Made by a program: the position numbers and the translations under genes. Below, in pieces: positions 21,181-56,956 of a DNA stretch of 64,000 nucleotides. The DNA is taken from contig CM114271.1 of assembly GCA_050084515.1 (NCBI GenBank), positions 22,258,001 through 22,322,000 on the forward strand, in the 5' to 3' direction. The stretch comes from Blasia pusilla (lineage: Eukaryota). Below the pieces are notes generated by a model. The model saw only the letters and a list, made by a program, of their open reading frames with translations. It was not told where the DNA came from and ran no database searches. Position 1 is the first letter of the stretch, and the number at the start of each line of letters is the position of its first letter.

Positions 21181-21933
21181 TGCCTCAAGAGTTTTGAACG
21201 TGGATTGCTTGAGTCAACCCATGTACAATTGTTATTCAAAGTTTTGACAAAGAGAATAGATATTACAAATGATTGAATTAAATTCAGAATAAATGTCCAC
21301 CGGATGATGGATTGAGGAACTCTTCAGAATCCAAGAGAACCAAGAGAAGTTCTTACTTTTTGCTATTTTGCTAATCTGATAAAGTTGGTTTACCCCCACA
21401 AGATGCAGAGATAGCCAAGCTTAGAGTTAATCTGGATAGGTGCTTGCAAAGAAACAAGGTAGAGTGTCATGAAGAGATGGAATTGACGACTTTAAAATAT
21501 GAGAAAATTCTCCGAGATCTTTGAGATGCACTGCACACAGAATAAATAAAACATCACAAACTAGTATGTGGTCCTCTTAATAATCTCAAGGTGGGTGATA
21601 TGCTAGGTGCTCCATCTGATACAATTTCTCCGAATAATATATATACTAAGATACTCGGCTATCAATGTGGTCGTCGTTAATTGGGGATTAAAACGGCCAA
21701 AGTAATAAAATGCTTCAAGGTGGATTCGAAATGATATAGCATATCATTGTGCGGGTTTCCTAAGGGTATATGTCAAGTATCATCAAGATTAAGTAGATAT
21801 TGTAGAAAAGTGGATTGTCACTTGAATTGGATCCTTGGTGTGCTCTCAAGATGTGACTTGAATCCATCAAACTTCATTCCTACCGTCTTCAAGCAAGACA
21901 AGAATACCCTTGAATGGAAGGACTCTTGAAAGA

Positions 21934-22128
21934 AAGTAGGAATCATGTTTCAAATGGTTCAGACATTCTTGAACATAACTAGTGGTTTTTTTTGTTCATT
22001 TGGAAGACAGTAGGAATCATGTTTCAAATGGCTCAGATATTCATGAACATGACTAATGATTTTTTTTTGTTATTTTGAAAGACACTAGGAATCAAATTTC
22101 AAATGGTTCAAATATTCATGAACATGAC
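21934..22128. repeat. Tandem repeat, ~75-bp unit, ~2.7 copies
   Basis: Three copies of taggaatcatgtttcaaatgg(t/c)tcaga(c/t)attc(t/a)tgaacat... Confidence 0.85.
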
Positions 22129-25270: not shown

Positions 25271-26512
25271 AAAATGCCATTTCTACTTCCTTGTTGCCTT
25301 CACACATCCCTTCTTGTTATACACTTATGATGCAAATAGAAGAGCATAACATCGGCACCTTCAAAGGAGTTGGATGCTCCTACACTTGAGGCTAGTGGGA
25401 CTCGAATAAGTGTAGGTGCAAAGGTATGTTATTATGTAGAAAAAATAAGGATTTATAGTTGAGACTTGGAAGCTTTTGTGCCATGGTTTGTTTAGTTACT
25501 TATTGCTCAATTCACATATAGTTTCCTGATCTAAAATTTTGGTAGGGGGTGGAATTTGACGTAACTTACCAAAGGGCATTGGAGTCCTAAGAAAGGCGAT
25601 GGATAGCACAATTCCAAGCAATGCGGACATCTATCGAGGAGAAGGTGGAAAAAATAAGAGATAGCAAACTACTAATTTGACTACACAATTAACCGACCTC
25701 ACAAAGAGGGTTGCTGATTTGGCAACGATGGTCACTCAAAATAATTCAAGTTAGATTGATATGTTAACGCACCACACCATTTAGAGATACCAACTTGTAA
25801 GATTTTTTCTTGTGAAACTTGAATGTCTTAATATGCCATGGTTGGAGATTGTTTAGATATGTGCAATCTTGAGCATTTTTATTGTTGTAGACCCAACTAT
25901 CATGTAATTTCAACTCACAAGTTTTCCAATATCAATTTTAATTTTATGTTGTTATCTCATATGTATACTATTTTCAGGGGTTCTTGATCCTTCAAAATCA
26001 AGACTTTCAAAACAAGTTACTGAGCCCATCAAGATTCACAAGGGTCAAGAGTATATGCACTTTGAAATTGGCAAGTATATGGGCAGATTTTACACCTAAT
26101 GCCTTATGCAAATGTTTATTACAAATTAGTGAGGTTAAGTCCTGTTTCTTTTCATAGCTTATACAAAAGACTCACATGTATTTCTCATGAAGGGTTGCAT
26201 AAGAGAAACAAGATCCCGACAATACTCATCTCCCACGAAGATGGTGTCGATGCATCGACAACTAAGGGTGAGTGAATTAAATAGGCATCATATTAGTCAC
26301 TCCAATTTTTTTGTTATTGGATTATTTCATGCCTTACAGACTAATACTTTGTACATCTTTTTTTTTCTATAATTTTTTCTCAGGTTTATAGTTGTCTCAT
26401 GTATGAGGGAAAGGATTGGGACCAGAACAAGGTGCTCAACCAAGAAATCCACCATCTGAAGTTGGCATCCAATCAATACTTTCTTCTCCAATGAAGAAAT
26501 TTTTGAAGACAA

Positions 26513-27270
26513 TATCGTGCGCATGCACATCGCTACACAACCCACATCGTTGGTGACATCTACACACCACACAACACTTATATTCCCCAACACATAGGTA
26601 GATCCACACCTAAACAAAATACACTCACGCATATACATTGGGACCCTACAACTGAAATCAAGAGTACTAAAAACGGCTTACCCGGCCTAAAACTCCACTC
26701 ATGAGTCTACATCGGCATATCAAACCACATCCACCCTTTGTTATGAGGGAATCCGAATGCTAGCACCCTAACTCCTATATATCCACACACGTCTATGCAA
26801 GAGAGGCACTCATTAGGCTCAATATGAGAAAGATGGCTTGAGAAATCCATCTCTTTCACTCTTATACCCTTGGGAAGAGCCAAAAAGCTCTTCCCCCAAG
26901 CCCTCCCAACGGTAACTTGCGTGCACAGGTTATTGGATGACCATTGACTTGTCCAATGGGTCATTTGACGGACTAAAGTAGGGAGATTTCCATAAACGAC
27001 GTTCCCGACGCAACAAACCTATCGCCAACCTCATCTGACATCTAGGGACAAAGTTACACCCAAACAACCCGCTGACTCACTATATCATCGACGCGATAGA
27101 ACTTTACCTACGTCAAAATAAGATGTGATAGCTATCGTGCGCAAACACATCGCTACACAACCCACATCGCTGGTCACATCTACACACCACACAACATAGA
27201 TCTTCCCCAACATACGGGTAGATCCACACGTAAACAAAATACACTCACGCATATAGACTGAGACCCCACA
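26513..27270 (-). repeat. 3' terminal B-A-B repeat block of the minus-strand DNMT-gypsy copy
   Basis: B1 27270-27133, 2-nt spacer, A 27130-26655, B2 26650-26513. Purine tract (TAAGGGGGCGG on minus) lies just before B1. Confidence 0.85.
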
Positions 27271-27299
27271 ACCGCCCCCTTAGCTGGCAGTCGGGTCCC

Positions 27300-28470
27300 C
27301 CTAACTCCATATAGCACACACATATGTACTCGACGAGATCTCCTATCCTATATAAGTCTAGCACCATTGGTGTCGTCATCCCCGCAACATTGCCACACTG
27401 CAACAACCCGCCATGTTGATCCCTCCAAGAGATCTGACATTCTTGTACCCTGCTCCAAACATAGACGCAGCTCCACGCATGCCTCACGAGCTCGTATGCA
27501 CTCCACGCATCTCAATGCTCATCCCCAACAATGATAAAATCAAACTCCCCACCATGGGAAGAGACATCCATCTTGGCATGTCTCTCAGTGGGACTATCCG
27601 CTACGGGAATGTCCTCCCCAACCACTATTTAATCAACTGACACCACATGTGAATGCTGCCAGCGTGGTCACCATATTCTCACGCGGTCGACCATCACTAA
27701 CTCTTGCAAACTGCACCGATAGATGGCTCATATGTTCATCACCTAATCGCCATCCTGGCCGTTAAGAAACTATCTCCTCCCAAAAATCCAGAATAAAACC
27801 AAGGGGATACAACAATGTATTCCCTACTAACATAGCATACAACTCTGTCGGCGTCGTAATCGCTTGCGTCTGCACCATTGCACTATCTGACTCATGCTCT
27901 TGCCAAAGTCTTACCACCAACTCTTGTCGAGTCATATATAGCGTGGGTGATACGCCCCCAATAGAGATTTGTATCTGAAAGGCATAATGCTCAATGTTGC
28001 ATTTTCGTGAACCCAACGCCAAACACACCGCCTTCCCTAACATCAAGGACTGCGCTCTCGGATCAAGTAGGATGCGTTGGAGGTGGTACACCGTACCTAT
28101 GGGACTAACCAAGAAAAAAACTCATGCTCAGTTATCCAACAACACCACACTTGGTGTGATCATGGCTCGCTCTATCGCTCACCGAGCTGGCATATCTACC
28201 AACTTTGCCGCCGCCGCATGCCATGACTCAATGGAGGACGTCTTGAGCTCTTGCTCTGAGGGCAAGTCTACCACCTCCTCAACTATGTCCGAACGAGAGG
28301 TAGTCACCTCTTCACGCTCACACAACATGGCGGCCACTCGGAACACCTCCGCTGGTCCAACTTCCAACGTCGCCAACTCCATAGTGGAAAACAACGGAGC
28401 GTGGCTCACTCTAGTGGCCACCTCCAACAATGTGGTCAACACTGGCTCCACCGGAGCCGGCATAGGAGTT
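27300..28470 (-). pseudogene. Gag-PR linker, aspartic protease and start of the DNMT domain of the deleted gypsy copy
   Basis: LVSPIGTVYHLQRILLDPRAQSLMLGKAVCLALG is homologous to 43385-43684 (degenerate LLDSGA protease motif). 28179-28463 is homologous to 43158-43451. Confidence 0.8.
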
Positions 28471-29298
28471 TTCTAGGGGCTGGTATTATGGATGGAGAGA
28501 GGAAGAGAGAGAGGAAGAGAGGAAGAGAGGAAGAGAGGAGAGTCTCTCTTCAAAAAGAAGGGCAAAATCCGTCTCCTCTCTTCAATTTTTTTTGACATTT
28601 TTGAAATTTTTGTTTGCTTTCAAATTCATGGAATCTTTAGAAGAGAGTAGCAAGTGGATCACATTCGGGCCTAAAGTAACCTTCTTTTTTGAGGCTTCCA
28701 AGAACAAGTAGACATCATAAGACCGCTACAAATATCCTTCCATCACTCTCCATGTGAGCCCAATTTTCTTCACATTGCCTGTCTAAGCCAGCTCTACAGT
28801 AAGCCGAGCTGAGGGGTATTAATGTCGGAGGACCATCGACAGATAATTTGACCCGAAGTAGCAATTTCACCTCAAGGAAAGGTTCAAATAAAGACTCTAA
28901 CTATGGTCTCAATAGACTCATGTGCCCTTCAAGGTTTAGCTTCTCTGAGGATGTGGGTGACATTATGGATTGTTGACTCTTCTTGCATTAAATATCCCAT
29001 CCGATCAATACTCATCCATGAGGGGGTTTCACAACAGAACAAATCACTAATTACTGATGGTAGCCAAAGACTTTCATGATAGCATTGGATGATGTTGGCT
29101 CATGAATGGGTGCATAAAGTATACCATGGAGTGTTATGCGTTTGACAACTTGGTTTCACCATTCTCTCAACCATTGAGAAATGTATGCATCAAGAAGAAA
29201 ATGTGATGAGACTGAGAGGACAATTGAACTAAAAGGTTGATAGCTATCATGAGTAAAGAGGAACGGATGCACCCATGTCCCTTCATTCAGACCCTTAA

Positions 29299-29710
29299 TG
29301 TCGGAATCCGACAGGTTGTACCCCTTCCAACCCGTCGGAATGCGACAATTTGCAACTCGTCGGAATCCGATTGGTTGCACCCCTTGCAAGCAAGCACACA
29401 ACAACAAAATAAGGATCTTGAGAAGTGATTCCATTCCATCCTGCAACCCATGAGAATCTGACATGAAAATCCGATAAGTAGTAGGAATCCAACACATCTC
29501 TGAAATACCGTGTTAGAGAAGAATGGTGTGATGATCATGGGGGGAACGAGGCAAAAGTGAAGAAGCCTACCAAACTGCCTGAAAAGTTGGACTAACAAGA
29601 AAAGAGTGGGATCACTCAAGCAGCCAACTTGTCGGAATTCGACAAGTTGCTTGCAAGGGGTTTAAAATATTGTGACAAGTTGCAACCCGTCGGAATCCGA
29701 CGGGTTGCAA
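29299..29710. repeat. Palindrome cluster 1 (subterminal)
   Basis: Perfect 15+1+15 copy TTGCAACCCGTCGGA-A-TCCGACGGGTTGCAA at 29680-29710, plus degenerate copies. Confidence 0.9.
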
Positions 29711-30769
29711 AACAAACAACCTCGAGAAGATAGACCAACACAATCGACAAGAACAACAAAAATTCAGCAGAAGTTTACAAAAACTATCATGATTCAAAGA
29801 CCTTGTGTCCTTTATTACATCTGAGGGAAGCTCGAAAATGTGCATTTGATCTTGTCTATGATTTCTTTAGCCTCGTCATCTACAAATTTACTCCTAACTC
29901 TCATAGGTTCCCGTACAAAAGGAATGTCTTGGGATACAAGTGGCTCCTCTGGCCGATTATAGACAAGGATCCAAAATGTTGGGGAATTCGAGATCCTTGC
30001 CCCTCCCCCTAGGTACACCATAACGGTCCCATGTAACATGATTTGAGTCCCAACACCTTCCTCAACGGTAAATCTTGTATGCTCTGCAAGGTGACATCCA
30101 TCCAATATCAATATGTGCTCCGTCCTTGGAAAGCACTAAATCCCTTCTCCAAAACGCTTGAGTAAAGTTGGGTCCAATAAATCTTTGAACTCACTCGTCA
30201 TCGTCCGATAGCTCTTCCAGAATTACTCTCGGCTTTGCCCTCCCGATTTTCGTAATAGTAGGAAGTGATGACGGTGTCACTATCAATGGTGGTTCTAGAA
30301 CTGGAGCTGTTGGCTTTGGAGGAGAGTTGTATACTCCCACTAGCCTATTTGCAAAGGTCAAAAAGTTTGGCCTTCCCTCAAGGCAGAGAATGTTCCTGCC
30401 ACTATGCCATGCACCTCTCATACTCGCCCCTGATAAGCCCACTAAGTCAAAGACCAAGTCACCCGGCCTCGAACAGAGCTCAATGAGCGTTTGCATCAAG
30501 GCAGGTGACTTTTCCCTTCCTCCAAGTAAGGGGGTCCCGTCTTGCATGTAAATTCCCGCGGGGGGTGGGGGATTGTAGAGACTATCTAAGCTGTACCCAT
30601 CGGAGCATGGATCCACTGGATCCGGGATCAGGAACACTTGGAAGTTGTGCTCGGGCCTTACAAAACAGTACAAAAATGAGTGGTCCATCTGTAAACAATC
30701 AGGTTAAAAATAATGTCACCAAAAAGAAAAAGCTAGTAGACCGCTGGTCTACTCTCCATAAATTGACAC

Positions 30770-31275
30770 AATGTGCAAACCATCGAGATCTGACGGGTTG
30801 CTTTTCAACCTGTCATACTAGGTCCATACTAATTACCAACTCGTCCAAACTTGGCCTATAGGCCTGACAGAATAGCGTCTTGTTGAAGTCCGACGGGTTG
30901 TCTTACAACTCTAAGACCCCTTTTTGGCCATGAGCAACCCGTCGGAAGCCGACAGGTTGCTCATCTTGCTGGACAGAACCTCCACTGTTTCGAGTGCGAT
31001 GGTTGGCTTACAACTGAATACAATTGTTAAGAGTTGAGAAGTTCCTAATATAAGAGCAACTCTTCACTTTCAAACGGGTTGCATCAATCCAGAAACACGG
31101 GGAAAAGCAGTGCTACTTGCAACCCGTTGGGTTTTGACGGATTGCAATAAATTGAGACTTGTTGGTGAATTTGCAACCCGTTGCTTTCACACGGACTGCA
31201 ACATCGCAGACACAAGATGTTGGGATCCGACATGTTGCATGCACAGATGCAACCCGTCGGAGCCCGACGGGTTGA
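30770..31275. repeat. Palindrome cluster 2 (last intron of the ParB-MTase gene)
   Basis: e.g. gcaacccgtcggaagccgacaggttgc at ~30934 and tgcaacccgtcggagcccgacgggttg at ~31248. Confidence 0.88.
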
Positions 31276-31944
31276 GAACTAAATTTGTTTAATAAGAGGA
31301 CTTACCCGGACTTGACTCGTCCCCGATCGGAGTGGATACTCGTTTTTAATTACCCATGATTGCGTCGTCCTCCACTTCAGTGACCTCTTCACGCACTGAA
31401 GGTTGAAGAGCTCGTCTTTGCTCCCTCCAGTGAGAACCAAGAAACAACCCCTGTCACTCAAATACGCATCAATAAAAGAAAATAATAGCGCGATCTGGTC
31501 GTACGAAAGCTGGATAGTGTCAGACGGATTGTTGTCCCACAAGCAAAACCTAGAAGGAAAATTCGAAACGAGGAAGTCCACCGCCACCTCCTCAACCACC
31601 CCATGCACCGTCCATGGGGCGTGCCCATTTCGAAGGAGTTTTTGTCCCACCACGTTCAATTTGTCGATGGCAAGTGTCGATTCCTGAGAACTGAAACACT
31701 GCAGCTCATCGACAAGATGAGTCAATTGAACAAGGAAATTTTTCCTGGTGGTTGTTTCCCTATGCCTGCCCAAGGATGATGGAGTGTATTCCACATCCTT
31801 ATCTCCTCCCTCGGACGAACCAAACGTCTCCCACTTCTGCTTTTCTCGAGTCTGCTCTCGGCTTGTGGGAGTCTCTGTTACCTCAAACTCCACATGAGTT
31901 TTCTTGGATGAGGACCTGGTCCGGTCCTCTAGCCCAACTCGCCT

Positions 31945-32090
31945 GGAAAATTCCGCCTCTCACCTGGACGATTCCGCCTCTTGCGTGGACCATTCCGCCT
32001 CTCACCTGGACGATTCCGCCTCTCGCCTGGACGATTCCACCACTCGCCTTGAGGACTCAGCCTTTTTTCAGGAAGACTCCGCCTGAGAAT
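31945..32090 (-). repeat. In-frame 21-bp coding tandem repeat (AESSRxE)n
   Basis: ttccgcctctcacctggacga repeated ~5-6 times. Confidence 0.85.
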
Positions 32091-33460
32091 TCCTCGATCC
32101 CCTTGCCTTCCTCAAACCCGTTGTGGATTTGTCTTTGGCGGTGACAACCTTGCCCACCAACTATGTTGTCTTACGGGCTTGCTCTTCCACATCTCCTTCG
32201 AAAAAATTGTTAGGTTGCACAAAGTTTGGAATGTCGTCCCTACCTACGACCAATGCATCATACACCACGCGTAGATTTTTTTGTGTAATGTCCTCTGGGT
32301 CGTTGAAGTCCAACTAGATTGGACAATTGTTAACATCCCAGTCGGACATGCCTTGTCCCATCTCCATGTCGTACATGGAGAATGCCTCTACATCAGGCAA
32401 AGAAGCCCACAATTTGCAGGCTGCCGGTAATTTTCCTAGGTACCTCCATTCTTACAATTGATGAGGTACCTGTACACCATCCGCTGGGAAAATCTTTGTC
32501 GAGATGACTCGGCCGCCTTGTCTTGAAGATCCCGCTTCTTCTTTGCAAAATCCCCTTTTTGGGCGTCTATTTCCTCATCCAACTCTGCCTGAGGGAGCAT
32601 GTGATTCTTGAACATCATCCTACATCATGGGTTTTTCGTGGGCTAATCTATGATGTCCTCAAGCCATAGTTCAAAATCTTCTACAGCCTCTTGGTTTGCT
32701 TCCTTTGGAACAAGCTCAATCTTCTTCAGCTCCGCTTGAAGACCCACAATCATGGACTTCCCCAGAAGGCGTAACGCGTACCAGAATGACCATTCCCGAA
32801 GCCAATGGGAGATCGCAGGATCTGAAACTCCCGGAGGATTGTGTGTGGCCCTCTTTTGGGCCTCAGTGCCCTCGAGACTGATTTTCATAAGTCAGATTTG
32901 CCTAAACTCGGATATCCCAAAGAGCGCAAATCTGTGCACGCGGTCCAAAGACACTTTCTTGCCGATCCGACCATGTGGATCTTCGTCTCTCTTCCGCTAG
33001 CGCTTGATTATCGCCTTGAGCTCCTTGTGAAACTCCGAGCCAAGTTCGGATTTGAGAATCCCAATGTAGTGCTGCATCTTGCTTGCAGTGTACTTTGTAG
33101 CTGCAGATACGCCGGATTGAATAAACTTTGCACGTTCCGACGCTGATACGTTCTCCCTTCGCTCCAGTTCCAACGAAGCACTCTTCTTGGCTGCGTGGAT
33201 CTTGGACCAACATAGGATTGTGACGGCTGCATCTTGGGAAATGAAGGTATTTGCCCAAGTCTTCTTTTTTACTTGACCTCCCTTTGCCAACATCTCATTT
33301 TCCAGACCATCGCCCAGGAATCCCTTGCACTCTGCCGGATGCGTCAGAAGCACCTTCTTCATCCTATCGCAATCCTAGATCGACTGGTGGGTGATATTTC
33401 CCTCGGATAAAATCTTGAACATCCAAACACAAGGTAAGAATACTGGAAGCTATTGGGTTC

Positions 33461-34275
33461 CTGCAACCGGTCGGACTCCGACGGGTCGCAATTTTGTCAA
33501 CCCATAGGGGTCGAAATGGTAGCACAGAGATAAATGTTGCAACCCGTCGGAGTCCAACGAGTCACAACACATATCTTTGTGTTACACTTATTACAACACT
33601 CTTGAATTTTTTAGAGAGAATTGCAACCCAGTCGGACTCTGAAGTCGGACTCTGACGGGTTTTGGAATGACTTCAATTCGGAGACAAGCTCTCGGAAAAA
33701 AACTGCACATATCAAACCTTATGAGTCCGACGAGTTGTGGAATGACTTCAATTCGGAGATAAGCTCTCGGAAAAAAACTGCACATATCAAACCTTCGGAG
33801 TCCGACGGGTTGTGCGATGCCTTGTAAAGCTGAAATTGGATGCCTAAAAGCAAGCTCTTGTACTCTAACTACCTACCCTTGGGATGTGTGGGGGGATGCA
33901 ACTCGTCGTAGTCGGACGAGTTGCTTTCGGCCAAAAGTATCCGAAAAATACCGGACAGTCCAGCAACTTGTCGGACTCCGAGGAGTTGCTTTTAGGCATC
34001 CGATGATTTGTTAGCTCTCGTTGTGCAACTCGTCGGAGTCCGACGGATTGCAGAACAAATAAATCATGCAGTCATTTTTCCACCCGTCGATGTTTGACTG
34101 GTTTCAGTATCCCGGATTAATCTGGTGTGCTTGGCCATCAGGCAACCCGTTGGACTTCGACCGTTTGCTTGACTACGACATTGACCACAAACAGGATGGT
34201 GGCAAGAGACTCAAATCATTCCTTCCCATCTTTAAGCTTTCCAATTATTCAACCTGTCTGACTCCGACAGGTTGA
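33461..34275. repeat. Palindrome cluster 3 (intron 2 of the ParB-MTase gene), including a ~75-bp tandem duplication at ~33660-33810
   Basis: About a dozen degenerate gcaac(c/t)cgtcgga(g/c)tccgacgggttgc copies. Confidence 0.88.
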
Positions 34276-35889
34276 AGCAATCAAACTTAAAGAAGAGGAA
34301 ACTTACATATTCATTGCATGCATTGCCATTTCCAACATTGCCATGTGATGAGGAAATGGATGGAGCACAACTGCCTTCACGCAAAAATCCGCCTCCAATG
34401 AATTTGGGCGCTCCTCTGCAAACTGCGTCCACACCATGTACCTGTGGTTTCCATCCGAGATGAAGAAGTAAGGGTTCCCCATCCTGCTAAATTTGGTTCC
34501 TTCAATCGCTCTTCTGAACTCTTGATCTCTCATCCTCCAGAAAGTATCCAGCGCCTCCAAGTCCTCTTCCGTCACCACCGCTTGGGTTCCATAATTGTCG
34601 TAAGGTTGAACATAGAATGGAGGGAAGCTGTCGACGTAGGATGTCACTGCCGACTGTTTGAGCTTTGCAATGTCCTCCTCCGACTAAATTTTGCGGACGT
34701 ACCCCATTGTCCGTAATTGATAGAGTGGAATTCTCGGGGCGTTCTGGCCCTCCATCAGTGCCATATGCTTAACAATCTGCCACAATGGGGACCAAGTCAA
34801 TAAAATAATTAGCCTTCACATAACTCAAATTTTTCTTACCTGCTCAAAGATTGGGTCGATGTCGAGGCCTGCCAACTGCTCTGGGATAGCAGCAGGCAAG
34901 TCCACGGTGAAACTCATCGATACGATAAAGGTCGATTTCTTTGGCACGGTTCAAAGACGATGAAGACTCTTCTCCTACTTCTTCAAATATGTCCACCATC
35001 TCCACACTTGCTGTCCTCATGACCTCATTGTCTGTCACTTGAACTTCGGCCGTTTCCTCAACCGATTTTAGATTCATGGTGTCCTTAGACCTCATCAGAG
35101 ACATTTTTTGCATCTCAACACTCTCTGTTGGACGAGCATAGCTTTCTTCAATGGCAATTGCTTTTTCCTTTTGAGCTTTCGCGAATTTTGCTCGCCTCAC
35201 AGAGGCATCAAGACGCTTCTTCTGGTGTTTCTCATCCGCGACTCTTTTCTTCAAGGCCTTTGATGCCTCATCCTCGGCGTTTTGCTTAGCGAGCTCCTCT
35301 AGAACACTTTTTGCTAGAACCTCCTGCGTGTACACATCTGCTTCCCTTTTCCACTCCTCTATTTCTTGTTGCCTTATCTCATTTTCCAAACAAGGACCTA
35401 GAAATGGTGACGTTGGAGTCCTTATGGACTTGGGAGTGATGCTCCTACCTTGGTTGCTTGTGTTTTCTTTCTCGTCATGATGCATGTTGGGTCAGTTCTT
35501 CCTCTTTGACAGTCTAATCTGCTCTTGTGCACGATAGATCCCTCGGAGCATTTCCTGATGAAGCACCGTGACCCTAAACCTGACTCTCTTAGCCTTTCAT
35601 GATGAAGTGCCGTGACCCTCTACCATATGGGCTTGCCAAAATCAAACCCTCGTAGCGTCGGGTGTTGGATCTTTGTAACCTTCTAGCAAAGTGGTGATGT
35701 AGCCGAGTTTGGCAGCGGATAGGAAACGTCAACTGTTGCGAGGAAGAGCACATGAAATCGCGAAATGAAAAACGGGAATGATCAAAACCTCGGCCTTTTA
35801 TACTTTTCCAACCATTGAGCTGACCGTTGGGTGGTTGGGTCATATCGACAGCGACGTGTCGGCCGTTATGGAACTTTGCACGTGGGAAC

Positions 35890-36720
35890 CCGGGCAACCC
35901 GTCGATCTCCGACGGGTTGCACGCTTCCCTCGTCTTGGGGATGCGGGGTGAGTTACCAAGTCAACCTGTCCGAGGCCGACGGGTTGCACGCGTTCCTCGT
36001 CCTCGGGTAACAAGGCAACCCGTCGGAGACCGACGGGTTGCCTGGGTACCTCGCCTTGTTACCCGAGGGCCAAGTTGCACGCTTCCCCCGTCTTGGGGTA
36101 ATAAGGCAAGGTACCCGCGCAACCCGTCGGAAACCAACGGGTTGCACGCTTCCCTCGTCTTGGGATTACAAGGGGAGGTACCCGCGCAACTCGTCGGAGA
36201 CCAATAGGTTGCACACTTCCCTCATCTTGGGAAAACAAGATGAGGTATCCGGGCAACTCTTCGGAGACCAACAGGTTGCAAGCTTTCCTTGTCCTTGGGT
36301 AAGAATGCGACAAAGCATGGTCCCGAGGCAAGCCGTTGACCTCCAACGGGTTACAAGGTCTACCATGGGTTGGACACTTCCCACCATACGGCAAAACTGC
36401 ACTCACGGTTTGCACGATTCATTGGACAAAAGAAATTGACGCGAGATCCAAAAGGGAAAGTGAGGTTAGGTGCCTTACGAATCCGTCGCAGTCCCCAACG
36501 GGTTGCTGTAGCAAATCCATGCGATGTCTCGTATCTCGATGTTAGCAAATCCCGACTCCAATCATATAGGTCAGCCAAGCAAGGGGTACCAACCCAACGG
36601 ACTCCGACGGGTTGCAAGTTACACTCATACTCTTACAGAAGCAGGTACTCCGTGGCTTTGCAACCCACGTGTCTAAGTCCCAAATTTTGCAACCTGTCGG
36701 ACTTTGACAGGTTGCAACAG
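35890..36720. repeat. Palindrome cluster 4 (between the divergent genes), partly in 67-bp tandem units
   Basis: Palindrome starts at 35894 and 35961, then 36119, 36186 and 36253 (67-bp period), most followed by a cacgcttccctcgtcttggg-like sequence. Confidence 0.9.
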
Positions 36721-36995
36721 GATTGAATCCATTGCGTCAGACAATCTCACCTACCAAACAACATATTTTCAGTCGAATTTTATCATGAGAATAACCGTCA
36801 CTGTTCACTATAAATTAAACATTCCCATTCTCATTCTTATTCTTATTCTCATTCTCCACCCAGTGGAATCATCTAGGAATGGATAATTATGTGAAACTCA
36901 CTTGTGGGAGTCATCTAGCGGCCCTTCCTCAATCATAAATAGTTTGATCGCAAGCTCGTGAATCTTTCATACCACTTGATGAAAATTTCCTCTCA

Positions 36996-39900
36996 GTGCG
37001 ATTTCTTCTCCAAATTGGAATAATCTTTGTTTCCAAGGACGTTAAGGTGGACGTTAGGGTGGACGGTATGGAGGACGTTGTAGGTGAGACAGTCCAGCCA
37101 ATGATAGCAGACCGTAAAGTACGGAATCTCCTACCTCTAAAAAATGGTCAATACGGAGTTTATGGCTTGCCTCTAAATTCCTATGTTTCCCAAGTAGACA
37201 GTCCAGAATTTCCTAGTGCACCGAGCTCCACGTTTGCCACTCCAAGCTCAGTAGATCCGGCTTCGACTCCAACTTCAAACGTTCGTAACAATGTTGTACT
37301 TCTTGAAGACATTCCGGATGTCGTCAATCTCAGTGGAACTGTCGGACACCAACCGGGTCTTTTGTTTGCCTACTCGTTCCTCTTGGGAGTATCAGGCAAC
37401 AGTTCGCTGTCATCTCTGCCCTTTAAAATATTCAAGCACATTCTTATCGACGAGATGCCGCCCACGTACGATGGTAATTGCATTTTTGAGTTGCCCCCAC
37501 TTGCTCGTCTTGCTTAAAAGAAAGATGGAGGACGCTTGAAGGATATGGACAGAAAGTCTTATTGTCATCAATGGTGCAGCTTCAATGGACTATTGCTTCA
37601 ATTCGAGATGGTCCTTGGATCGTTTTTCGCCGCCAATGCGTGGAGCCCTAGAGTGTAGAAGTCCTGCATGCCCGTATCTAGAGCGCAATGGGCGAGTCAA
37701 TACGTCACAATTTCCCCCTAAGAACGCAGAAACTCCATATGAGGTCGGTGTGACCATATCGCCGGGAGGCCATCGATATCCTCATTATCAGGCATCCCCT
37801 TTCTACGTTGGAGCGTGTCCTGCATACATATTTTTCATTGTGCACAACTTCAATTCTACGTCCGAGTATACAAGGCTGGAAGTTCATGTTGGCTCCCACA
37901 TTCATCTTGTTACCGGTGTAATTCAGAGACATATCAAGGAGGATGTGGCAAAGAAAGTGGCCGAGGTATATAGAAACTCTCCGGGATCAAAGCTCAGAGT
38001 GATAAAGTTAACAACATCATCACAAATTTGTGAAAAATTGCTTAGAGTCCCTGAGCAGTGCGAGATCATGGCTGCTGAGGAGAAACAACTATGGGAAAAT
38101 CTCGCATTTCTCGCTGATCCAGAATGCTTCTGGAATTTGCTGCCTCAAATACGGGCACTGGATGGAAAGACGGCCGGAGTGGAAGCCATTTCTAGAATCA
38201 AGGTGAACTCAAGATTTCCATTTATTCAAAGATGGCAGTTCATGGGCCAAGGAGGCGAAGGATTCAGGGCTTATGTCTTCAAAATGTCAACGATATGGTA
38301 GTCGAGTGGCCTAGATCTTAAAGATCGAATGAGGGAAGGGGAAGATCTTTACGGCAGGTGAGTAAGCTTTGATATTTGCTACAGAGTGCTGAATGGATGG
38401 TTGACCATGGGTGCTCACGTTTATGACCATGTGCAGAAGGGACTCAAAACTACATTCGTCTGTGAGGTAAAAGCAAAAGACGTTGGCAGTTTGAAGATGT
38501 GTTGGTTACTCTTATTGGAGGTGGTGAAGGAAAACAAAAGGCCACCTCCGGAAATTTATGGATTCATGGCGGAAAATGCACAATCTGGGTGGATTGCTAT
38601 CAGGGAAGTGTTATGGAGTGGACAGGTTCAACCAGAGAGGGAAAGGTCGGATGCTTTCCATTGGCAACAGTCTGCGACCCGGTACACCAAATCTTGCATC
38701 AAGGAGAATAAGAGGACAAAGCATGTCACTCTACTCCAACGTTGTAAGGACAACAAAACCTTGAAACATGCCATGGAGTGCTAAGAAGAACTACATGGGT
38801 GGTGGAGGAAGCATGCAATTGAGGGGAAGAACAAAGAGTTGTGCTCTTGGCTCAGTTGGTGGATTGTACGAATGAGATAATGGGAAAACTTCATGCGTGA
38901 GGTGAGTTCAGTATTTCGTCCTGTCGAGCTCATGTTGACAATTTTTTGAAAAGTTGCAACTCAAGTTGAGAAGTGTGGGCACTATAGGGATTTCAAACCG
39001 AAGAAAAAGCAACCCGTCGAATGCGAAGGGTTGCGTGAGTGTGCAACCTATCGGAAACCGACGGGTTTCCTAAGTGTGCAACCAGTCAAAAACCAAAGGA
39101 GTGCATCAAGAATGTTTGTGTTACCCGTTGGAGCGCGACATGATGCACGAGGAATGTTTGTGCAACCTGTCGGAACCCCATTGGTTGCATGAGTGTGCAA
39201 CATGTCGAATCCCGACGGGTTGCAAGTTGCATGTATACAAGGCTTGCAGATAATTTGACCTGGATGGGTTGCAAGCTGCAAGCCTGCGAGTTAACTTGGT
39301 TAGCAACCCCTCAGATTCCGACAACTTGCATCTGTCTGCAACGTGTCAGATTCCGACTAGTTGCGTCTGTATGCGATTCCTTGCATTAAGACAGGTTGCG
39401 GCTGTCTCCAAGTCGCATCCAAACACGTTGCATCAGTTCAAGTTAACTGGAACCCGTCGAATTCCAATAGTTGCAAAGCTTCGTGTGTGGACATTTCTTG
39501 CAAACCAACGGAATCCGACAGGTTGCACAAGGATTTTTGACACAACCCATCCGATTTCGACGAATTGTAGAAGCAGGTTCCTGGGTGCTGGGTTGTAGTA
39601 AAAGGTTACAGGGACATTCCAGGGATGTCTCCGACTTGCAACCCGTTTCTAGTCGGAGGCTGGAAAATCCATGTGCGACTCGTCGGATTCTGATGACTTG
39701 CACTTGGATCTTCCAGCTCGAAGTGGCCAAAGTTACTTGCAACCCGTCCAAATCCGACGGGTTACAGTAGGTGGTTCCTAGATGTTGCAACACGTCGGAA
39801 ACCGATGGGTCGCAGAGTCATTCATGGGATGCATCTCACTTGCAACCCGTCTGGTTCCGACAGGAAGTTTTTTTCTTTGCTCATAGAGCTATTTTCGTTC

Positions 39901-40282
39901 CCTTCTCACATTGCCGTCGTTGCAGGGATTGAACATTCATGAAAATGCCCTCTGCCCCAATACGAGTGGAGCAGAAAGTGTTCATTCCTCTTGGAGGTCG
40001 TCACAAGCATGCCAAAGAATTTCACTTGTGGAGGCATGCCAACAAGACCAGGCAAGAGCAATGCTACAATCAGCAGCATTCCATATCTTCCTCACAAAAG
40101 GCATAACAAAAGGAAGGGGGCCTTCGATTAACGAGCTCTATGTCAGGGCGGCATTGAGATCTGGTGATGAAAAACTCTATGTGGAAGCCTTCAATCGGTG
40201 CGTAGCAGGAACTCTCCTCGAGCAAGATGTCCACATTGGTGGAGACATTCGTGGGCGTGTTCAAGACTTCCCATACAGATGA
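36996..40282 (+). pseudogene. MULE-like DDE transposase with N-terminal WRKY/GCM1-type zinc finger; one phase-0 intron 38902-39925; several stops
   Basis: LECRSPACPY...CPAYIFFIVH...HVGSHIH; VSFDICYRV..WLTMGAHVYD; GFMAENAQ; RERSDAFHWQQS (C/DxxH); PNTSGAESVHSSW. Confidence 0.78.
39005..39865. repeat. Palindrome cluster 5 (transposase intron)
   Basis: More than 15 degenerate tgcaacccgtcggaatccgacgggttgca copies. Confidence 0.88.
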
Positions 40283-40899
40283 TGGTAGAGCAGTCCGAGC
40301 GAGACTCGTAGAGACCAGATAAGTATCTTGACTTCAAGCAAGTCCTTATGCTGTAGGAATGGTCTCAGCAAGGGAGTAGTACCCTCTCAAGCTTGTGTAC
40401 ACTTTGAAGCTTTCTCATTCTTGATGGAGGAGTAAAGAACTCATTTCTTCATTCTGATGTGCGATGCATATGTATGAGAATTCTTATTGGGTTTGCAGAG
40501 TGAAGAGTGAATCAGGAGAACACTTTCATCATTAGAATAATCAACATTGAGTTGTAAGAAATCTGTTCGATAGAGAGTAGCCTGCCTACACGGATTGAGC
40601 TCCAAAAGTAGGAGAAGCCAGCTTCTTGTTGAGGTCTTTGTGAGGCTCTTTGATGTTAAGTGAAGATCTACCTGAGCGTGAATTCAATTCCACTAGAGAG
40701 AATCGAGGAAAGAAATCTTGGTACCAAGGGAGAGAAGAATACATTGACAAGTGATTGAATCCGAATTGTACACACTTAACTACAACTATTGCAAGATAAA
40801 TGCCATCTTGAACTCTATTTTCACATAATCGTGATCCTTTTGGCGATCGAGCTCATTAAATTAATGTAAAAAGAACAATTCTTAAACTTCTTGTACATT

Positions 40900-41460
40900 A
40901 CATCCGCACATGTCCCCTCCTATGGGTCAATCTCAACCCCAACGCTCGATGGCTCGATTACTCTCGCAACACCCCGAGTCACCATCGCAACAGCCTCAAC
41001 TTGAGCCGCTCTACACATAAATCCCATCCTTGTAGAATCCTCATTAGCACATGGTAAGATGTGGAGGCTGGCGCGACACTAGCTACTCTTAGCTTCGTGC
41101 ATGCGTGCAATGGCGTCATCGTCATGGCAACAATCCTCTCCTCCAACTAATCTATGCGCGTAAGGAGCGCTGCATCATGTGCATGTCCTCCATCTACTAT
41201 GACGGGTGATAGCACTCTACCACTACAATCACCCACCAACTCTCTCACCCCCAAGTCATGTGCCTACATCAGGACGTACCTCATGGCAAAGATCATAATA
41301 CGTATCCCTAGTGTGACCATATCGGTGATAATGATCACATTGCCACTATAGTGGGGCCATCCTCTGTGGCTCCTGAGCAATCACAGGTGCCCGTGGCCCT
41401 CTCCCATGATGTGGGCAGTTTCTCTACTTATGTGGCCCATCACACGTTGTCGTATAGTAA
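40900..41460 (-). pseudogene. Gag fragment (two degenerate zinc knuckles) of the minus-strand DNMT-gypsy copy
   Basis: TCDGPHK*RNC and CDHYHRYGHTRDTYY. The reverse complement of 40900-41170 aligns with 42750-43010. Confidence 0.75.
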
Positions 41461-41470
41461 AATCAGCCAG

Positions 41471-42659
41471 TGTGTAAACTCCTTCCTCGTTAAGTGTTAG
41501 ATAGAGTTTTATTAGTATTAAGTAAATTAGCTTAGGAAAAGGAAATTCCCATGTTTAAACCTCTTTATGGTGCCTCTTCTATGCCGGCCCAAATTTATGA
41601 AAAGAGGTAATAAATAAAGGATGACTTTATAAAAGTAAAGTACTGAGGTTGGTGCTTTAATGAAAAGCAAAAGTAGGCTTGGTTGGTGGTTAGGTTAGTT
41701 GAGGTAATTTGGAAAATATCAAGTGGGTAAAAGATGATATTTTGGAAGAGATAAGAGGAAATCTATTTGTGTCAAAATGTGATTGGCTAAGCCTTGAGAG
41801 GAAGCCATGTGGCACAAGATAAGATTAGTTCTATTTCGTACCCTTTTGGGTCTCTTGTGAGTATATAAAAAGGAGGGACCTTCAAGGGTTCATCACCTTT
41901 TATTCCACATCTTGAGTCTCTCGTGTCACTCTTGAGTGTATGGCTTTGGAATTGCTTGCTCTTCCAATGAGAGTGGATCACTTCTCTTGGGAAAGTAACT
42001 TGATCATGCTCTATTTTTTGAAAGATTTCTAGAATGTGGTGTGTGTGGAAATGAGAGGTTTGTCACCTTAGAGGAGTTTAGTCATACTAAAATAGTGAAT
42101 GTTTTGGTTTGTTACTTCCCAATGAGAGTGGATTATCCCTCTTGGGATAATAACTCCGCCAAAACCCATTTTTGAGGAGAGTAGATAATGTTTGTCAAAC
42201 ATGGATAGGGGTGGAGTACGAGTTGTGCCCAAATTTCCTTTCCTTAATCCATATCATGTCAAGATACTTTTTGTAGATAGAAACTGGTTCACTCGTTATT
42301 TAGTTTATCACTTTCGGGAAGCGTTCATGAACGAGGTCATTCAATCTCCAACTCCGGTTATCCTTCCTATCGTCAGATATGGAAGGACATGGGATTATAC
42401 TTTGTATGTCCTTATATAGCGATCCATGGACATCAATATGCTTGCTCAAGTAGGGTTTAACACTAGTTGTGTTATCTTCCTCATGTACAAGGGTAAAATA
42501 GTTTATAAAGATTTTATAGTTAGGAATTTCGGAGTCCGATGTTACGAAAAAGTGATCGCCTCGGCACTTCCATTTGTGATACCTGTCGTGAGAAAATGGA
42601 GAGTATACATAATAATTTTATATTGAAAAAAAATATCTTCTTAGAGAGTTCATTTTGCA
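41471..42659 (+). mobile_element. LTR-like segment of an unrelated element
   Basis: Abrupt AT-rich non-coding block, TG start and CA end, TATA-like gtatataaaa at ~41861. No TSD or partner LTR seen. Confidence 0.35.
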
Positions 42660-44263
42660 TCGACCACGTATGCTGCAATTAGAAGGCATGGTGGTAGAGG
42701 ACCACCACCAACTAGAGAAGATGGAGCATGAGCACCAGAGCCGACACTTCTCTCATACATCGATCAATTGGAGTAGAGGATTGCTGCCATGACGATGATG
42801 CAGCTCAGGAAAGGCACGGAGCCGCGAGCAACTATTGTGGCTCCAACTTCTGCCTCTTACCCTGACCCGGGTGAGGATCTCGCTAGTATGGGGTTTATGT
42901 GTAGCGCAACTCTAGTTGAGGCAGCTGCAGTGGTGACTCATGGTGCTATGAGAGGCATCGAGCCATAGAGAGGTGGAGTTGAGATTGACCCATCGGAGGG
43001 GACCGATGGGCGGCAAGCTAGGGTTCTACAGTCATTCACATTGTCGGAGGCACTACACACACCATCGATGGTGCATTGACGACTAGTGGTGCCTACAACT
43101 CAGGCAAGTACGTCGACGTCACGAGGAGTTGGAGTGACAAATCCTATGTCGGCTTGAGTGGAGTCAATGTCGACCATAGTGTTGGAGGTGGCCACCAGAG
43201 TGAGTCAAACTCCGCTATTTTCCGCCATAGAGTTGGCAACGTTGGGAGTTGGACCAGCTGAGGTGTTCCGGTTGGCCGCCATGTTGTATGAGCATGGAGA
43301 GGTGACTGCTTCTTATTCAGAGGTAGTTGAGGAGATGGTGAACTTGCCCTCGGAACCGGTGCTCATGACGTCCCCCATAGAGTCATGGCATGCGGCGGAG
43401 CAGAAGTTGGTAGATATGCCAACTCGACGGGCCATAGAGGAGCAGTGGTGATACCTAGAGTAGTGTTACTGGATAATCGAGCTAGAGTATTTTGCTTGGT
43501 TAGTCCGACGGGGATAGTATACCACCCGCAGTGCGTCCTACTTGATTTGGAAGCGCAGGCCTTGATGTTAGGGAAGGCGGCGTGTTTAGCGTTGGGGTTA
43601 CGGAAGGCCGACATTGAGACTTGTCCCTTCCAGATAGAGACCTCGATTGGGGGCGTATCACCCACGCAGTATATGACTCGATAGGAGATAGTTGTTAGAG
43701 TCCAGCCAGAGCATGCGACGGATAGTGCTATGGTGCGCACATGTGCGATTACGACACAAGCTAAGTCGTACAATGTGTAGGTGGGGAGTATAGCGTTAAA
43801 TCCCCTAGGATTCATCCTTGACTTTTGGGAGGAGACCGTTGCTTATCGGCCAGGGTGGCGGTCAGGTGACGGGCAGATGAGTCAATTACCTTTGCAGTTT
43901 GCGGGACGAGGTGGTCGATCACGAGACGAGTCTGTGACCACGTTGGCAGCTTTCACAAGTAGTGTTAGCTGGCCATGAGAGTTGTTGGAGGGGAACGCAC
44001 ATGCGGAGGATGTCCCAATAGCGGATAGTCCCACTGAGAGACAGGCCATGGAGGGTGTCTCTTCCCATGTTGGCGAGACCTCTTCACCATTGTGGGGTAC
44101 AACTTGAGAGCTAGAGAGGAGTGCCGACAACCTCGTGACTCATGCGTGGAGTCATGCCTTTATCTCGGAGGAGCGAGAGTCAGGTGGCGATCGGGCTCCT
44201 GGAGTGGAGACATTGACCCCATTGGATACCACACGCGTTGTGTGGCAGTGTCCAGAGGAGGGT

Positions 44264-45190
44264 GTTAGGGTTTTAGATCTCTTCGGAGGGATAAGCACTA
44301 GATTGGTTGCAGTATTGTAGGCGGGCATACGGGTGCATCAGTACCTTTATGTAGAGAGAGATGATACCACACGGCAACTATCATTATGTCACGTAGCAAG
44401 ATTGGTCGAGAGGTATCCTGAGTTGTTGTCAGTATCTGCGAGTACGGGGATATCAACATACACTACTCGCCGACATCTCTTTGGTGGGGACGCAGGATCT
44501 GGATAGAGTTTGCACCATTCATTTGGTGATTGTTGGATGGCCATGTCATGGTCATTCATCAACTGGCCGAGGATTTGGATCGCAGGATCCAAGGCCAAGG
44601 ATGTTTTGGGAGATGCTGCGAGTAGTATGACACTTGCAGAAGACTCAAATACGTTCTCCAACATACATTTTTTAGAACGTGCCGTTGTTGGGAGACACTC
44701 AAGCACGTGTGATGACGAGTGTGCATCAAGTAAGGTCATGGTTACGACCTGTTGTGTTGCTAGATGCAGCGAGAGTTGGATCACGTGCCGATCGTCCATG
44801 ACTGTGGTGAACGAACCTGATAAGATCAGAGGTACTGAGTCTAGCATACGATGGAGTCTAGAGATCACCACATCTCACATTGGATGCTATTTTGGGCTCA
44901 GGGGGTCAATCTCAGGTGGTGATGCGGGATGATAGACAACCGTTGGCGATGGCCAATAGGGTGGGGGAGTTGAGGGCAGCCTTACCTACGTTGGTGATAT
45001 TCCCATCATCCCATGCCTTTTGTCAAGGAGGGCCACGCATGATTTGGGATGAGGTGACCTGAGCATTAGAGGAGCCTACAGTAGATGAGCGCGAGCGCGC
45101 CATGGGGTGTGCTACGGATACTACAGTGGTGCCAGGTATGACTGAAGCATCCCGGAGACAAGTGTTGGGGCAGGCGATGGACCTCAACTG
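44264..45190 (+). pseudogene. DNMT3-like C5 cytosine methyltransferase domain within the gypsy pol
   Basis: Motif I VLDLFGGI, II YLYVE, IV LVIVGWPC, QDPRPRMFWEMLRV, VI (E>*)NVP, VIII LLDAARVGSRADRP*LW*TNL, IX DERERAMG, X RRQVLGQAMDLN. Confidence 0.9.
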
Positions 45191-45599
45191 TCTCACGTCC
45201 ACGAGTTGGACCATTGCCTACACGGTCTATACAGGCATTGGCTAGGGGCGGGACAAGGAGAGATAGGCACCCATGGACTTCCTGGGACGTCGCTCGAGCA
45301 GAGAGTGCGAAGGCAGCCAGAGTAGCACATGTTCATTTTTTGGATGTGGAGCATGGTGTAGGAGGTCAGAGTGGAGTGGCTGTTGCGAAGGTGGCTAGGG
45401 TTGCTACATAGCAACCAAAGCCAGAGATTGCGTCCTCTCCGAGTGAGGTCACAATGGAGACTTAGGAGCCTGTGATAGGTCTCAAGTTGATAGGAGGAGA
45501 GCGACGGCGAGTTCATAGGTTTTTGAGAGGGCATGTCAGTTGTTTTGCCTTCAATATGAGATACTTGGGTAGCTAAAGGGTCTCGGGATACGGATTGAG

Positions 45600-48496: not shown

Positions 48497-48575
48497 GGTC
48501 ATAGGTCATGTTAGAGAGATGTGATATTTTCTATCTGGAGTTGGGGGAAATCCAACTGCCAGCTAGGGGGCCGGT

Positions 48576-56954: not shown

Positions 56955-56956
56955 CG

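What the first reader, a model, noticed from the sequence alone, without database searches (positions are those of the whole stretch)
29299..39865. Dispersed array of roughly 50 (by eye) copies of the palindrome TGCAACCCGTCGGA-N-TCCGACGGGTTGCA confined to non-coding DNA
A perfect 31-bp copy sits at 29680-29710. Degenerate copies cluster at 29.3-29.7, 30.8-31.3, 33.5-34.3, 35.9-36.7 and 39.0-39.9 kb, mostly separated by non-repeated spacers. Each copy has four symmetric CpGs, and many variants are C>T/G>A changes at them (cctgtcgg, cccgttgg, ctgacggg, ccaacggg, ccgacagg), consistent with 5mC deamination. The centre base differs by cluster (mostly A/T in clusters 1 and 5, G/C in cluster 3, gagacc-type in cluster 4), hinting at local amplification. 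Dyad symmetry fits a dimeric protein site, a cruciform, or RNA hairpins in the introns.
Basis: seen in the sequence. Interest (0 to 1): 0.8.

Follow-up and report, generated by a model that had tools for sequence, protein, structure and literature searches.

The report
Transposon studded with protein-binding palindromes
The repeated palindrome belongs to a very abundant plant jumping gene that also carries a gene resembling a phage DNA-sliding-clamp/methylase fusion, and it most likely serves as the landing site through which the element recognises and switches on or shields its own copies.

Summary
In detail: 46 copies (≤9 mismatches), all inside one element, none in exons. The region is a 3'-truncated copy of a ~12.5-kb Mutator-like DNA transposon (9–10-bp target duplications, ≥1,204 right ends in the genome). 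It carries a transposase and a divergent ~1,225-aa accessory gene: ParB-like domain, helical middle, and a β-class amino-methyltransferase domain with eroded catalytic motifs. Relatives occur in Riccia and Adiantum. The palindrome (13-bp arms, fixed 1-nt spacer) sits in three introns, the shared promoter region and near the ends. Its consensus is identical across subfamilies whose synonymous sites are saturated. It is also kept in ~630-bp non-autonomous minis whose interior is otherwise unrelated. That points to selection on a site for a dimeric protein, not a hairpin. The CpG/CHG decay is element-wide, not palindrome-specific. Best reading: a convergent VANDAL/VANC-like self-recognition system, probably using the ParB–methyltransferase-like protein, possibly by loading and spreading as ParB does at parS. 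Binding, the binding partner and the function are inferred, not shown. I found no description in the literature searches I ran.

The parts
28475..40343 (+). Mutator-like DNA transposon copy, older subfamily, 3' ~1.5 kb lost, inserted in a Gypsy-type LTR retrotransposon
   Evidence: Aligns along its length to 10 other copies and to the family consensus 2-11197 of 12685
28475..28560 (+). Left end: G-rich terminus plus GAAGAGAG subterminal repeats, mirrored at the right end of full copies; a motif distinct from the palindrome
   Evidence: End alignment of 11 left and 9 right ends. No matching target duplication found on the right in this copy
29292..29709 (.). Palindrome cluster 1 (5 copies, including the perfect one at 29680-29710), non-coding, 3' of the accessory gene
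29854..30133 (-). Short ORF remnant or partial duplication of the accessory gene's 3' region; role unknown
   Evidence: no Pfam hit
30191..30688 (-). Accessory gene exon 4: C-terminal half of a beta-class amino-methyltransferase (motifs X and I, eroded)
   Evidence: Pfam N6_N4_Mtase E=7e-4, below gathering cut-off; PHROG DNA methyltransferase E=2e-5 for another copy. RNA read ends match this copy's letters and none of the other fetched loci
30774..31276 (.). Palindrome cluster 2 (8 copies) in accessory-gene intron 3 (about 30689-31305)
   Evidence: intron inferred from GT..AG and protein homology, not seen in RNA
31306..33414 (-). Accessory gene exon 3: helical middle domain, 21-nt coding repeats (31917-32084), N-terminal half of the methyltransferase (motif IV region); broken in this copy
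33462..34276 (.). Palindrome cluster 3 (10 copies) in accessory-gene intron 2
   Evidence: the homologous intron is spliced GT..AG in 6 RNA reads laid on L026 (joint flagged 'between: not known')
34307..34776 (-). Accessory gene exon 2: ParB/Srx-like domain with DGNHR motif
   Evidence: DUF1015 E=0.0014; Atlas features DUF3723 0.94-0.96 and ParB_N 0.91-0.94; Atlas structure TM 0.51-0.60, under its naming bar
34840..35478 (-). Accessory gene exon 1: low-complexity/coiled-coil N-terminus
35893..36716 (.). Palindrome cluster 4 (9 copies, 67-nt tandem units) between the two divergently transcribed genes
36879..38901 (+). Transposase exon 1: Cys/His-rich N-terminal region, then D...D...xFH...W pattern; broken in this copy
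   Evidence: motif reading is by eye and from recall; no Pfam MULE hit
39042..39869 (.). Palindrome cluster 5 (14 copies) in the transposase intron (38902-39925)
   Evidence: the homologous intron is spliced in 14 RNA reads laid on L026
39926..40343 (+). Transposase exon 2, truncated; full copies continue to a SWIM finger, one more palindrome ~225 bp from the end, and the right end
   Evidence: SWIM E=0.017

Best explanation
SHOWN: the palindromes are a built-in part of a high-copy Mutator-like transposon, lie only in its non-coding segments, and keep the same consensus while the DNA around them turns over. INFERRED step 1 (about 0.75): they are binding sites for a dimeric protein encoded by the element. 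INFERRED step 2 (about 0.55): that protein is the accessory ParB-like/beta-methyltransferase-like protein, probably descended from a phage-type ParB-N6/N4-methyltransferase fusion, while the transposase uses the separate GAAGAGAG end repeats. INFERRED step 3 (about 0.4): as with VANC in VANDAL elements, dense clusters recruit the protein to every copy in trans to counter host 5mC silencing or otherwise license transcription and transposition. The ParB-like domain would let it load at a palindrome and spread over the 12-kb element. The eroded methyltransferase domain more likely binds or opens DNA than methylates it. Non-autonomous minis keep the palindromes to use the same service.
For: 19 of 20 genome loci with a perfect palindrome align to the element outside the palindromes; the 20th is a fragment of the element's intron 2 beside a Helitron-like region. 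The palindrome consensus is identical in 8 of 8 sets, including subfamilies with saturated synonymous sites (ParB exon pS 0.74-0.76, pN 0.12-0.15). dN/dS is at most 0.22 in all 15 accessory-gene comparisons. The spacer is fixed at 1 nt and information is confined to the arms. Minis: both ends found in 21 of 24 loci, 14 of 21 with a near-perfect 9-10-bp duplication, all 21 with 2-5 palindromes; apart from the two ends their consensus does not align to the palindrome-masked full element. Both genes are sense-transcribed at low level and two palindrome-bearing introns are spliced (3 runs, 1 study). The methyltransferase domain is beta-class by profile (M1.HpyAVI E=4e-4, CcrM E=4e-3) and by fold (CcrM top). 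VANC binds motifs in introns and intergenic DNA of VANDAL that amplify as tandem repeats (PMC5735166).
Against: No binding was tested. No HTH or other known DNA-binding fold was found in the helical middle domain. The ParB call rests on sub-threshold hits; my model of that domain was poor (pLDDT 42) and found no fold, and a profile search of PDB sequences found nothing. Palindrome CpGs decay as fast as the rest of the element, so resident copies were not lastingly protected. No second family with a different protein and a different palindrome was found to show co-evolution. Four distant metagenome loci with ParB-like remnants carry no arrays, but they are decayed. A MULE transposase alone can bind and activate its own copies (bioRxiv 2026.08.24.746577). 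VANC motifs are short, non-palindromic 9-mers.
Confidence: 0.5

Rival explanations
1. The palindromes are internal binding sites of the transposase itself (its Cys/His N-terminal region), serving as an enhancer for transpososome assembly or for self-activation; the accessory gene does something else.
For: Minis need only ends plus palindromes. Every full right end examined has one palindrome ~225 bp inside, and half-site-like sequence abuts the end repeats. AtMu1 transposase binds and activates its own copies. 8 of 40 right ends followed by GGTTGC have it at offset 0, i.e. insertion at one register of the palindrome's outer edge (P about 2e-4 for the 7 new cases).
Against: The ends carry their own distinct repeat. 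AtMu1 binding is at the TIRs, not internal. Overall insertion is not biased to palindromes: 2 of 134 junctions have one within 31 nt.
Confidence: 0.22
2. They act as structures (cruciform DNA, or pre-mRNA hairpins affecting splicing or small-RNA production).
For: One copy folds at -18.2 kcal/mol, z=-8.8. Symmetric double changes exceed shuffles: 353 against 217+-13 in 812 unique 29-mers, relatedness not controlled; 8 against 3.4, p=0.015, at consensus level. Three clusters are intronic.
Against: The same sequence, not just symmetry, is kept in unrelated contexts. The spacer is fixed at 1 nt. 101 of 572 consensus-level arm pairs are broken against 8 symmetric changes. In the window alone there is no excess (14 against 11.2, p=0.21). 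Clusters also lie between the genes and in non-coding minis. No Rfam match.
Confidence: 0.1
3. They bind a host transcription or chromatin factor that the element exploits.
For: A host partner would explain why the motif does not drift between subfamilies, whereas VANC targets diverge between families.
Against: A 27-bp dyad is long for a plant transcription factor (own knowledge). All 20 sampled perfect sites derive from the element. The element carries a conserved candidate of its own.
Confidence: 0.1
4. Neutral by-product: one ancestral palindrome spread by slippage and template switching, with no function.
For: Tandem units and cluster-specific centre bases show local amplification. Recent decay rates equal those of flanking DNA.
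Against: The consensus is unchanged across saturated dS while spacers become unalignable. The motif is excluded from exons, and retained in AT-rich minis (GC 0.62 in palindromes, 0.33 elsewhere).
Confidence: 0.06

Closest known systems
VANDAL elements and VANC anti-silencing proteins of Arabidopsis (PMC5735166, passages read; PMC6446971, passages read)
   Same: Mutator-like element with degenerate TIRs and 9-bp TSD; accessory gene; one motif concentrated in introns, intergenic and terminal non-coding DNA and amplified as tandem repeats; tandem peptide repeats in the accessory protein.
   Different: No Pfam hit links the accessory protein to VANC or PMD (no direct comparison with VANC was run); it is ParB-like plus methyltransferase-like. 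The motif is a 27-bp dyad, not an oriented 9-mer. The motif is stable across old subfamilies. Anti-silencing is not shown.
Phage/prophage ParB-CTPase-N6_N4-methyltransferase fusions (PMC12704722, passages) and ParB-dependent phage T-dioxygenases (PMC13229309, passages)
   Same: ParB-like N-terminal domain with a conserved Arg in a GxxR-like motif joined to a beta-class methyltransferase, on a mobile element.
   Different: Eukaryotic, intron-split, in a cut-and-paste transposon, with a ~450-aa helical insert. Motif IV reads D-[L/M/I/F]-P-[mostly S/T] instead of DPPY, and motif I is eroded. Only weak phage hits (E=0.03, motif X/I region).
Bacterial ParB/parS
   Same: Several copies of a palindrome near a ParB-fold gene.
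   Different: No ParA and no HTH detected; the site is 27 bp; NTP binding and sliding are untested.
Eukaryotic horizontally acquired amino-methyltransferases: Marchantia DN4MT1 (bioRxiv 2021.02.12.428880, passages), bdelloid N4CMT (search listing only), inactive DIRS1 methyltransferase domains (PMC4738411, passages)
   Same: Bacterial-type amino-methyltransferase domain in a eukaryote; DIRS1 is a precedent for a transposon-borne, eroded one.
   Different: DN4MT1 has an intact SPPY motif and is a host gene. DIRS1 is a retroelement with a different methyltransferase group. The passages read report no ParB-NTD fusion in land-plant DNA transposons and no linked motif arrays.
Spm TnpA and AtMu1 transposase self-activation (bioRxiv 2026.08.24.746577, abstract and one section)
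   Same: An element-encoded protein recognises cognate motifs, also in non-autonomous copies.
   Different: Those regulators are transposases or derive from them, and AtMu1 binds at its TIRs.

Membership tests
Mutator/MULE superfamily | 8-11-bp target site duplication | tested here: met
   Of 11 full copies with both ends located: 7 perfect 9-10-bp TSDs, 2 near, 2 none; 14 of 21 minis near-perfect
Mutator/MULE superfamily | MULE DDE transposase domain | tested here: inconclusive
   No Pfam MULE hit and no structure. The D..D..xFH..W..E pattern is conserved with the single 38% relative P0028, read by eye from recall. SWIM finger E=0.017
Mutator/MULE superfamily | TIRs (long, or degenerate in non-TIR MULEs) | tested here: met
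   Short degenerate G-rich termini with mirrored GAAGAGAG repeats: non-TIR type
VANDAL/VANC system | Motif concentrated in non-coding parts of the element and amplified in tandem | tested here: met
VANDAL/VANC system | Accessory protein homologous to VANC | tested here: inconclusive
   No Pfam hit to a VANC-type or PMD domain; its recognisable domains are ParB-like and methyltransferase-like; no direct alignment to VANC was run
VANDAL/VANC system | Protein binds the motif and removes 5mC from cognate copies | not testable with these tools
   Needs DAP/ChIP-seq and a methylome
ParB/Srx (ParB-CTPase) fold | Fold and Box-II arginine | tested here: inconclusive
   GNHR is conserved with Riccia relatives. 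DUF1015 E=0.0014; Atlas ParB_N/DUF3723 0.91-0.96, TM 0.51-0.60 under the naming bar. Own model pLDDT 42, no fold hit
ParABS partition system | ParA partner and HTH parS-binding domain | tested here: inconclusive
   No ParA-like ORF recognised in the element; no HTH match listed for the middle domain, which was not searched alone
Class beta amino (N6A/N4C) DNA methyltransferase | Motif order IV-TRD-I and fold | tested here: met
   Profile aligns over both motifs to CcrM and over the C-terminal part to M1.HpyAVI; top Foldseek hits CcrM, M.BceJIV, M1.HpyAVI, best E=3.8e-3
Class beta amino (N6A/N4C) DNA methyltransferase | Catalytic motif IV (D/N/S)PP(Y/F/W) and motif I FxGxG (PMC7544214) | tested here: not met
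   Motif IV is DLPS here; DMPS/DMPT/DIPT/DFPT and similar in relatives, DLPF in one fern protein and one subfamily copy. Motif I is DLVGLSG here and DFAGGWG in Riccia
Palindrome as an independent MITE/REP-like insertion | Own flanking duplications; occurrence outside the element | tested here: not met
   1 of 41 with a flanking repeat of 5 bp or more against 0.9 shuffled; 20 of 20 sampled sites derive from the element

The most novel reading that the evidence does not exclude
A eukaryotic parS/ParB-like load-and-spread system built into a plant transposon. A phage-derived ParB-NTPase-methyltransferase fusion loads at the 27-bp palindromes and slides along the 12-kb element, marking or shielding it against host 5mC silencing. 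The centre of the consensus is GANTC, the CcrM site, so the mark could be 6mA or 4mC if the divergent active site still works. The same protein family is carried in liverworts and ferns.
Probability: 0.18. Interest if true: 0.92.

Novelty: new variant of a known kind. Interest (0 to 1): 0.72.

Why it matters
Sequence-specific anti-silencing by transposons is known mainly from Arabidopsis VANDAL/VANC and Spm TnpA, and how one short motif lets a protein act over a whole long element is an open question (PMC5735166). Here a very successful family in a seed-free plant shows the same layout with an unrelated, prokaryote-like protein whose ParB-like domain offers a concrete spreading mechanism. Protein and 27-bp site are both defined, so the idea can be tested directly by DAP-seq, NTP binding and methylomes. 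If it holds, it is a convergent transposon counter-defence and a possible long-site epigenome-targeting module.

Tried and rejected
Helical phasing of palindromes: a 10-bp periodicity of spacings looked strong (R=0.29) but vanished when homologous spacings were collapsed (R=0.15, p=0.45). Insertion targeted next to palindromes: junctions cluster 3-12 nt from GCAACC, but non-palindromic GCAACC sites and the control hexamer GACCAC cluster too; a weak general target preference predicts the peaks, and only 2 of 134 junctions lie near a palindrome. For true palindromes the best-window test gave p=0.13. Only the offset-0 register remains unexplained. Palindrome-specific CpG loss or protection: not seen (one search had transposase exon 1 wrongly in the non-coding class and was redone). 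GANTC as the functional core: intact in only 19 of 41 consensus and 13 of 41 window sites, and common elsewhere in the element; kept as a lead only. A second family with a different palindrome: not found with two Riccia queries, which returned what looks like the same family (top 150 and 98 candidates scored, hits not fetched one by one). The palindrome is absent from viral and prokaryotic contigs and has no Rfam match. No relative was found for the ParB exon alone among longer proteins. No fold hit for the low-confidence ParB model and no HTH listed for the middle domain: absence untested rather than shown. No RNA holder was listed by index; same-species raw reads were laid instead. Earlier scan notes: three look-ups, nothing.


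Full report
1. Observation. The array is real. A 31-bp palindrome lies at 29680-29710. At <=9 mismatches there are 46 copies in five clusters, all within 28475-40343, against 0.07 in shuffled windows. The genome (390 Mb) holds 178 perfect 29-mers. Over 1,053 distinct sites from the loci fetched up to then, information is confined to 13-bp arms (GCAACCCGTCGGA), the centre base is free, and the spacer is 1 nt in 722 sites, 0 nt in 23 and 2 nt in 6.

2. The element. Ten other copies align to window 28476-40343. Full copies are 11.9-13.0 kb, begin with a G-rich terminus and end CACCTC, with mirrored GAAGAGAG subterminal repeats. Of 11 copies with both ends located, 7 have perfect 9-10-bp target duplications, 2 near-perfect and 2 none. 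An exact 13-mer of the right end occurs 1,204 times (control 18). Protein searches gave 3,602-4,308 first-look candidates, of which 136-150 were scored. The + strand gene has a Cys/His-rich N-terminus, a D..D..xFH..W..E pattern (my reading, from recall) and a SWIM finger (E=0.017). Pfam MULE does not hit, and only one 38% relative was found. I file it as Mutator-like on TSD, ends and motifs; 8-11-bp TSDs and non-TIR forms define MULEs (PMC6446971, passages). The window copy is an older subfamily (dS 0.3-1.1 to the main consensus), broken, truncated at 40343 and nested in a Gypsy-type element.

3. The accessory gene. On the - strand four exons give about 1,225 aa. They encode a coiled N-terminus; a domain with WDGNHR that scores ParB-like below threshold (my model failed; no PDB profile hit); a confidently modelled helical middle in the Riccia relative P0005 with no clear fold match; and a beta-class amino-methyltransferase. 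A search of 1.84 billion representatives gave 10 hits at 26-35% identity: 6 Riccia, 3 Adiantum, 1 metagenome fragment. Sixteen further Riccia sorocarpa gene models followed from P0005. Whether those lie in transposons I could not check. The host is therefore probably a seed-free land plant (inference). Motif IV is DLPS rather than (D/N/S)PP(Y/F/W), and motif I is eroded (consensus from PMC7544214, passages), so catalysis is doubtful. Yet dN/dS is at most 0.22 in all 15 accessory-gene comparisons between subfamilies. ParB-N6_N4 fusions are typical of phages and prophages (PMC12704722, passages), a plausible origin that I did not test phylogenetically.

4. Where the palindromes sit. None of 38 consensus palindromes overlaps an exon. 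Clusters lie 3' of the accessory gene, in its introns 3 and 2, between the two genes, in the transposase intron, and singly near the right end. RNA from three runs of one study laid on copy L026 gave 242-365 reads per run, mostly sense for both genes. It spliced the transposase intron (14 reads) and accessory intron 2 (6 reads); introns 1 and 3 were not seen. Read ends in the last exon match the window copy's letters and no other locus fetched by then. Of 20 genome loci picked from the first 50 listed perfect sites, 19 align to the element with palindromes masked. The 20th is an intron-2 fragment beside Helitron-like ORFs (Helitron label by eye).

5. Evidence of selection. In eight sets (main consensus, window, G1-G5, G9) the palindrome consensus is the same and clusters occupy homologous positions. 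Yet synonymous sites of the ParB exon are saturated in G2-G5 (pS 0.74-0.76), and spacers of diverged copies do not align to the main consensus. A ~630-bp non-autonomous family exists: 39 near-full matches among 40 scored candidates. In 24 fetched loci both ends were found in 21, 14 of these have near-perfect TSDs, and all 21 carry 2-5 palindromes in an AT-rich interior that does not align to the full element. A 330-bp form keeps one perfect palindrome.

6. Results against or neutral. C>T/G>A rates are 5-7% at CG and CHG and 1-3% at CHH everywhere in the element, palindromes included (12 copies): methylation decay, no protection. Symmetric changes are in mild excess, but 101 of 572 arm pairs are broken. 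Spacing periodicity and palindrome-directed insertion did not survive controls. One insertion register at the arm's outer edge is enriched: 8 of 40. One of these prompted the test; the other 7 have different flanks, and 5 of them show a further palindrome within 45 nt. Four metagenome loci with decayed ParB-like remnants have no arrays. No second protein/palindrome pair was found.

7. Mechanism. A fixed-spacing dyad conserved in sequence, in dozens of non-coding copies and in minis, fits a dimeric binder supplied in trans. The ends have a different repeat, which leaves the conserved accessory protein as first candidate. VANC binds motifs in introns and intergenic DNA of VANDAL, amplified in tandem, and demethylates the whole element (PMC5735166, passages). 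ParB clamps load at palindromic parS and spread (passages), and a phage ParB-like protein licenses a DNA-modifying enzyme (PMC13229309, passages). CcrM is a dimer acting on GANTC (PMC6787082, abstract start in listing), and GANTC is the palindrome's centre, though intact in only 19 of 41 consensus sites. The transposase is the main rival (bioRxiv 2026.08.24.746577, abstract and section 7).

8. Novelty. Full-text searches for transposon+ParB+adenine methyltransferase+moss and ParB+MTase+Selaginella+transposon gave 0 papers. Searches listed none on this by title or abstract start. Iyer et al. (PMC4738411, passages) list ParB-linked methyltransferases in phages and algae and inactive ones in DIRS1, not this; I did not see its supplement, which may list such proteins. 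The library lacks most subscription papers, and repeat databases were not searched. Verdict: it works like a VANDAL/VANC-type self-recognition system but is not shown to be a member; new variant; interest 0.72.

Noticed in passing
window 55938-63213: Young chromodomain-bearing Gypsy-type LTR retrotransposon: LTR pair about 6.25 kb apart, 96-100% identical in four of five blocks; gag knuckle, protease, RNase H, integrase, chromo hits.
   Followed up: partly
window 26500-28474 and 40900-49990: Older Gypsy-type retroelement pieces with a PHD finger after the integrase; the Mutator-like copy is inserted in one of them.
   Followed up: partly
G000 C1:48196616, C3:20630983, C3:42414671, C6:15393889, C6:24156910, C7:13314919, C7:13573072, C8:24128519: Eight insertions whose target duplication starts at the same GGTTGC register, apparently the outer edge of a palindrome arm (8 of 40); unexplained by the general target preference.
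   Followed up: partly
L095-L118: Abundant ~630-bp MITE-like derivative made of the two ends, poly-A/T tracts and 2-5 palindromes.
   Followed up: yes
L076-L077 (cluster at 9551-10135 of the 20 kb): Fragment of the element's intron 2 with 10 palindromes between a UBX-type host gene and Helitron-like ORFs (labels by eye): a candidate host gene brought under the element's control.
   Followed up: partly
window 30154-30349: RNA read ends match this copy's methyltransferase exon and no other fetched locus, so this broken copy or its near kin is transcribed there.
   Followed up: partly
window 34307-34776: Nearest named Atlas clusters for the ParB-like exon are fungal DUF3723, a term found in Starship papers (search listing; its role as Starship cargo is recalled): ParB-like cargo may recur in large eukaryotic transposons.
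   Followed up: no
window 40340-40875: 0.5-kb piece that also lies inside copy E1 but is not in the family consensus.
   Followed up: no
window 3759-5369: Host Gpi1 (PIG-Q-like) gene exons.
   Followed up: no
window 21912-22135: Three-copy 75-nt AT-rich tandem repeat.
   Followed up: no
L119-L148: 8 of 30 right-end flanks lie in family sequence: frequent nesting, possibly only from local clustering.
   Followed up: partly
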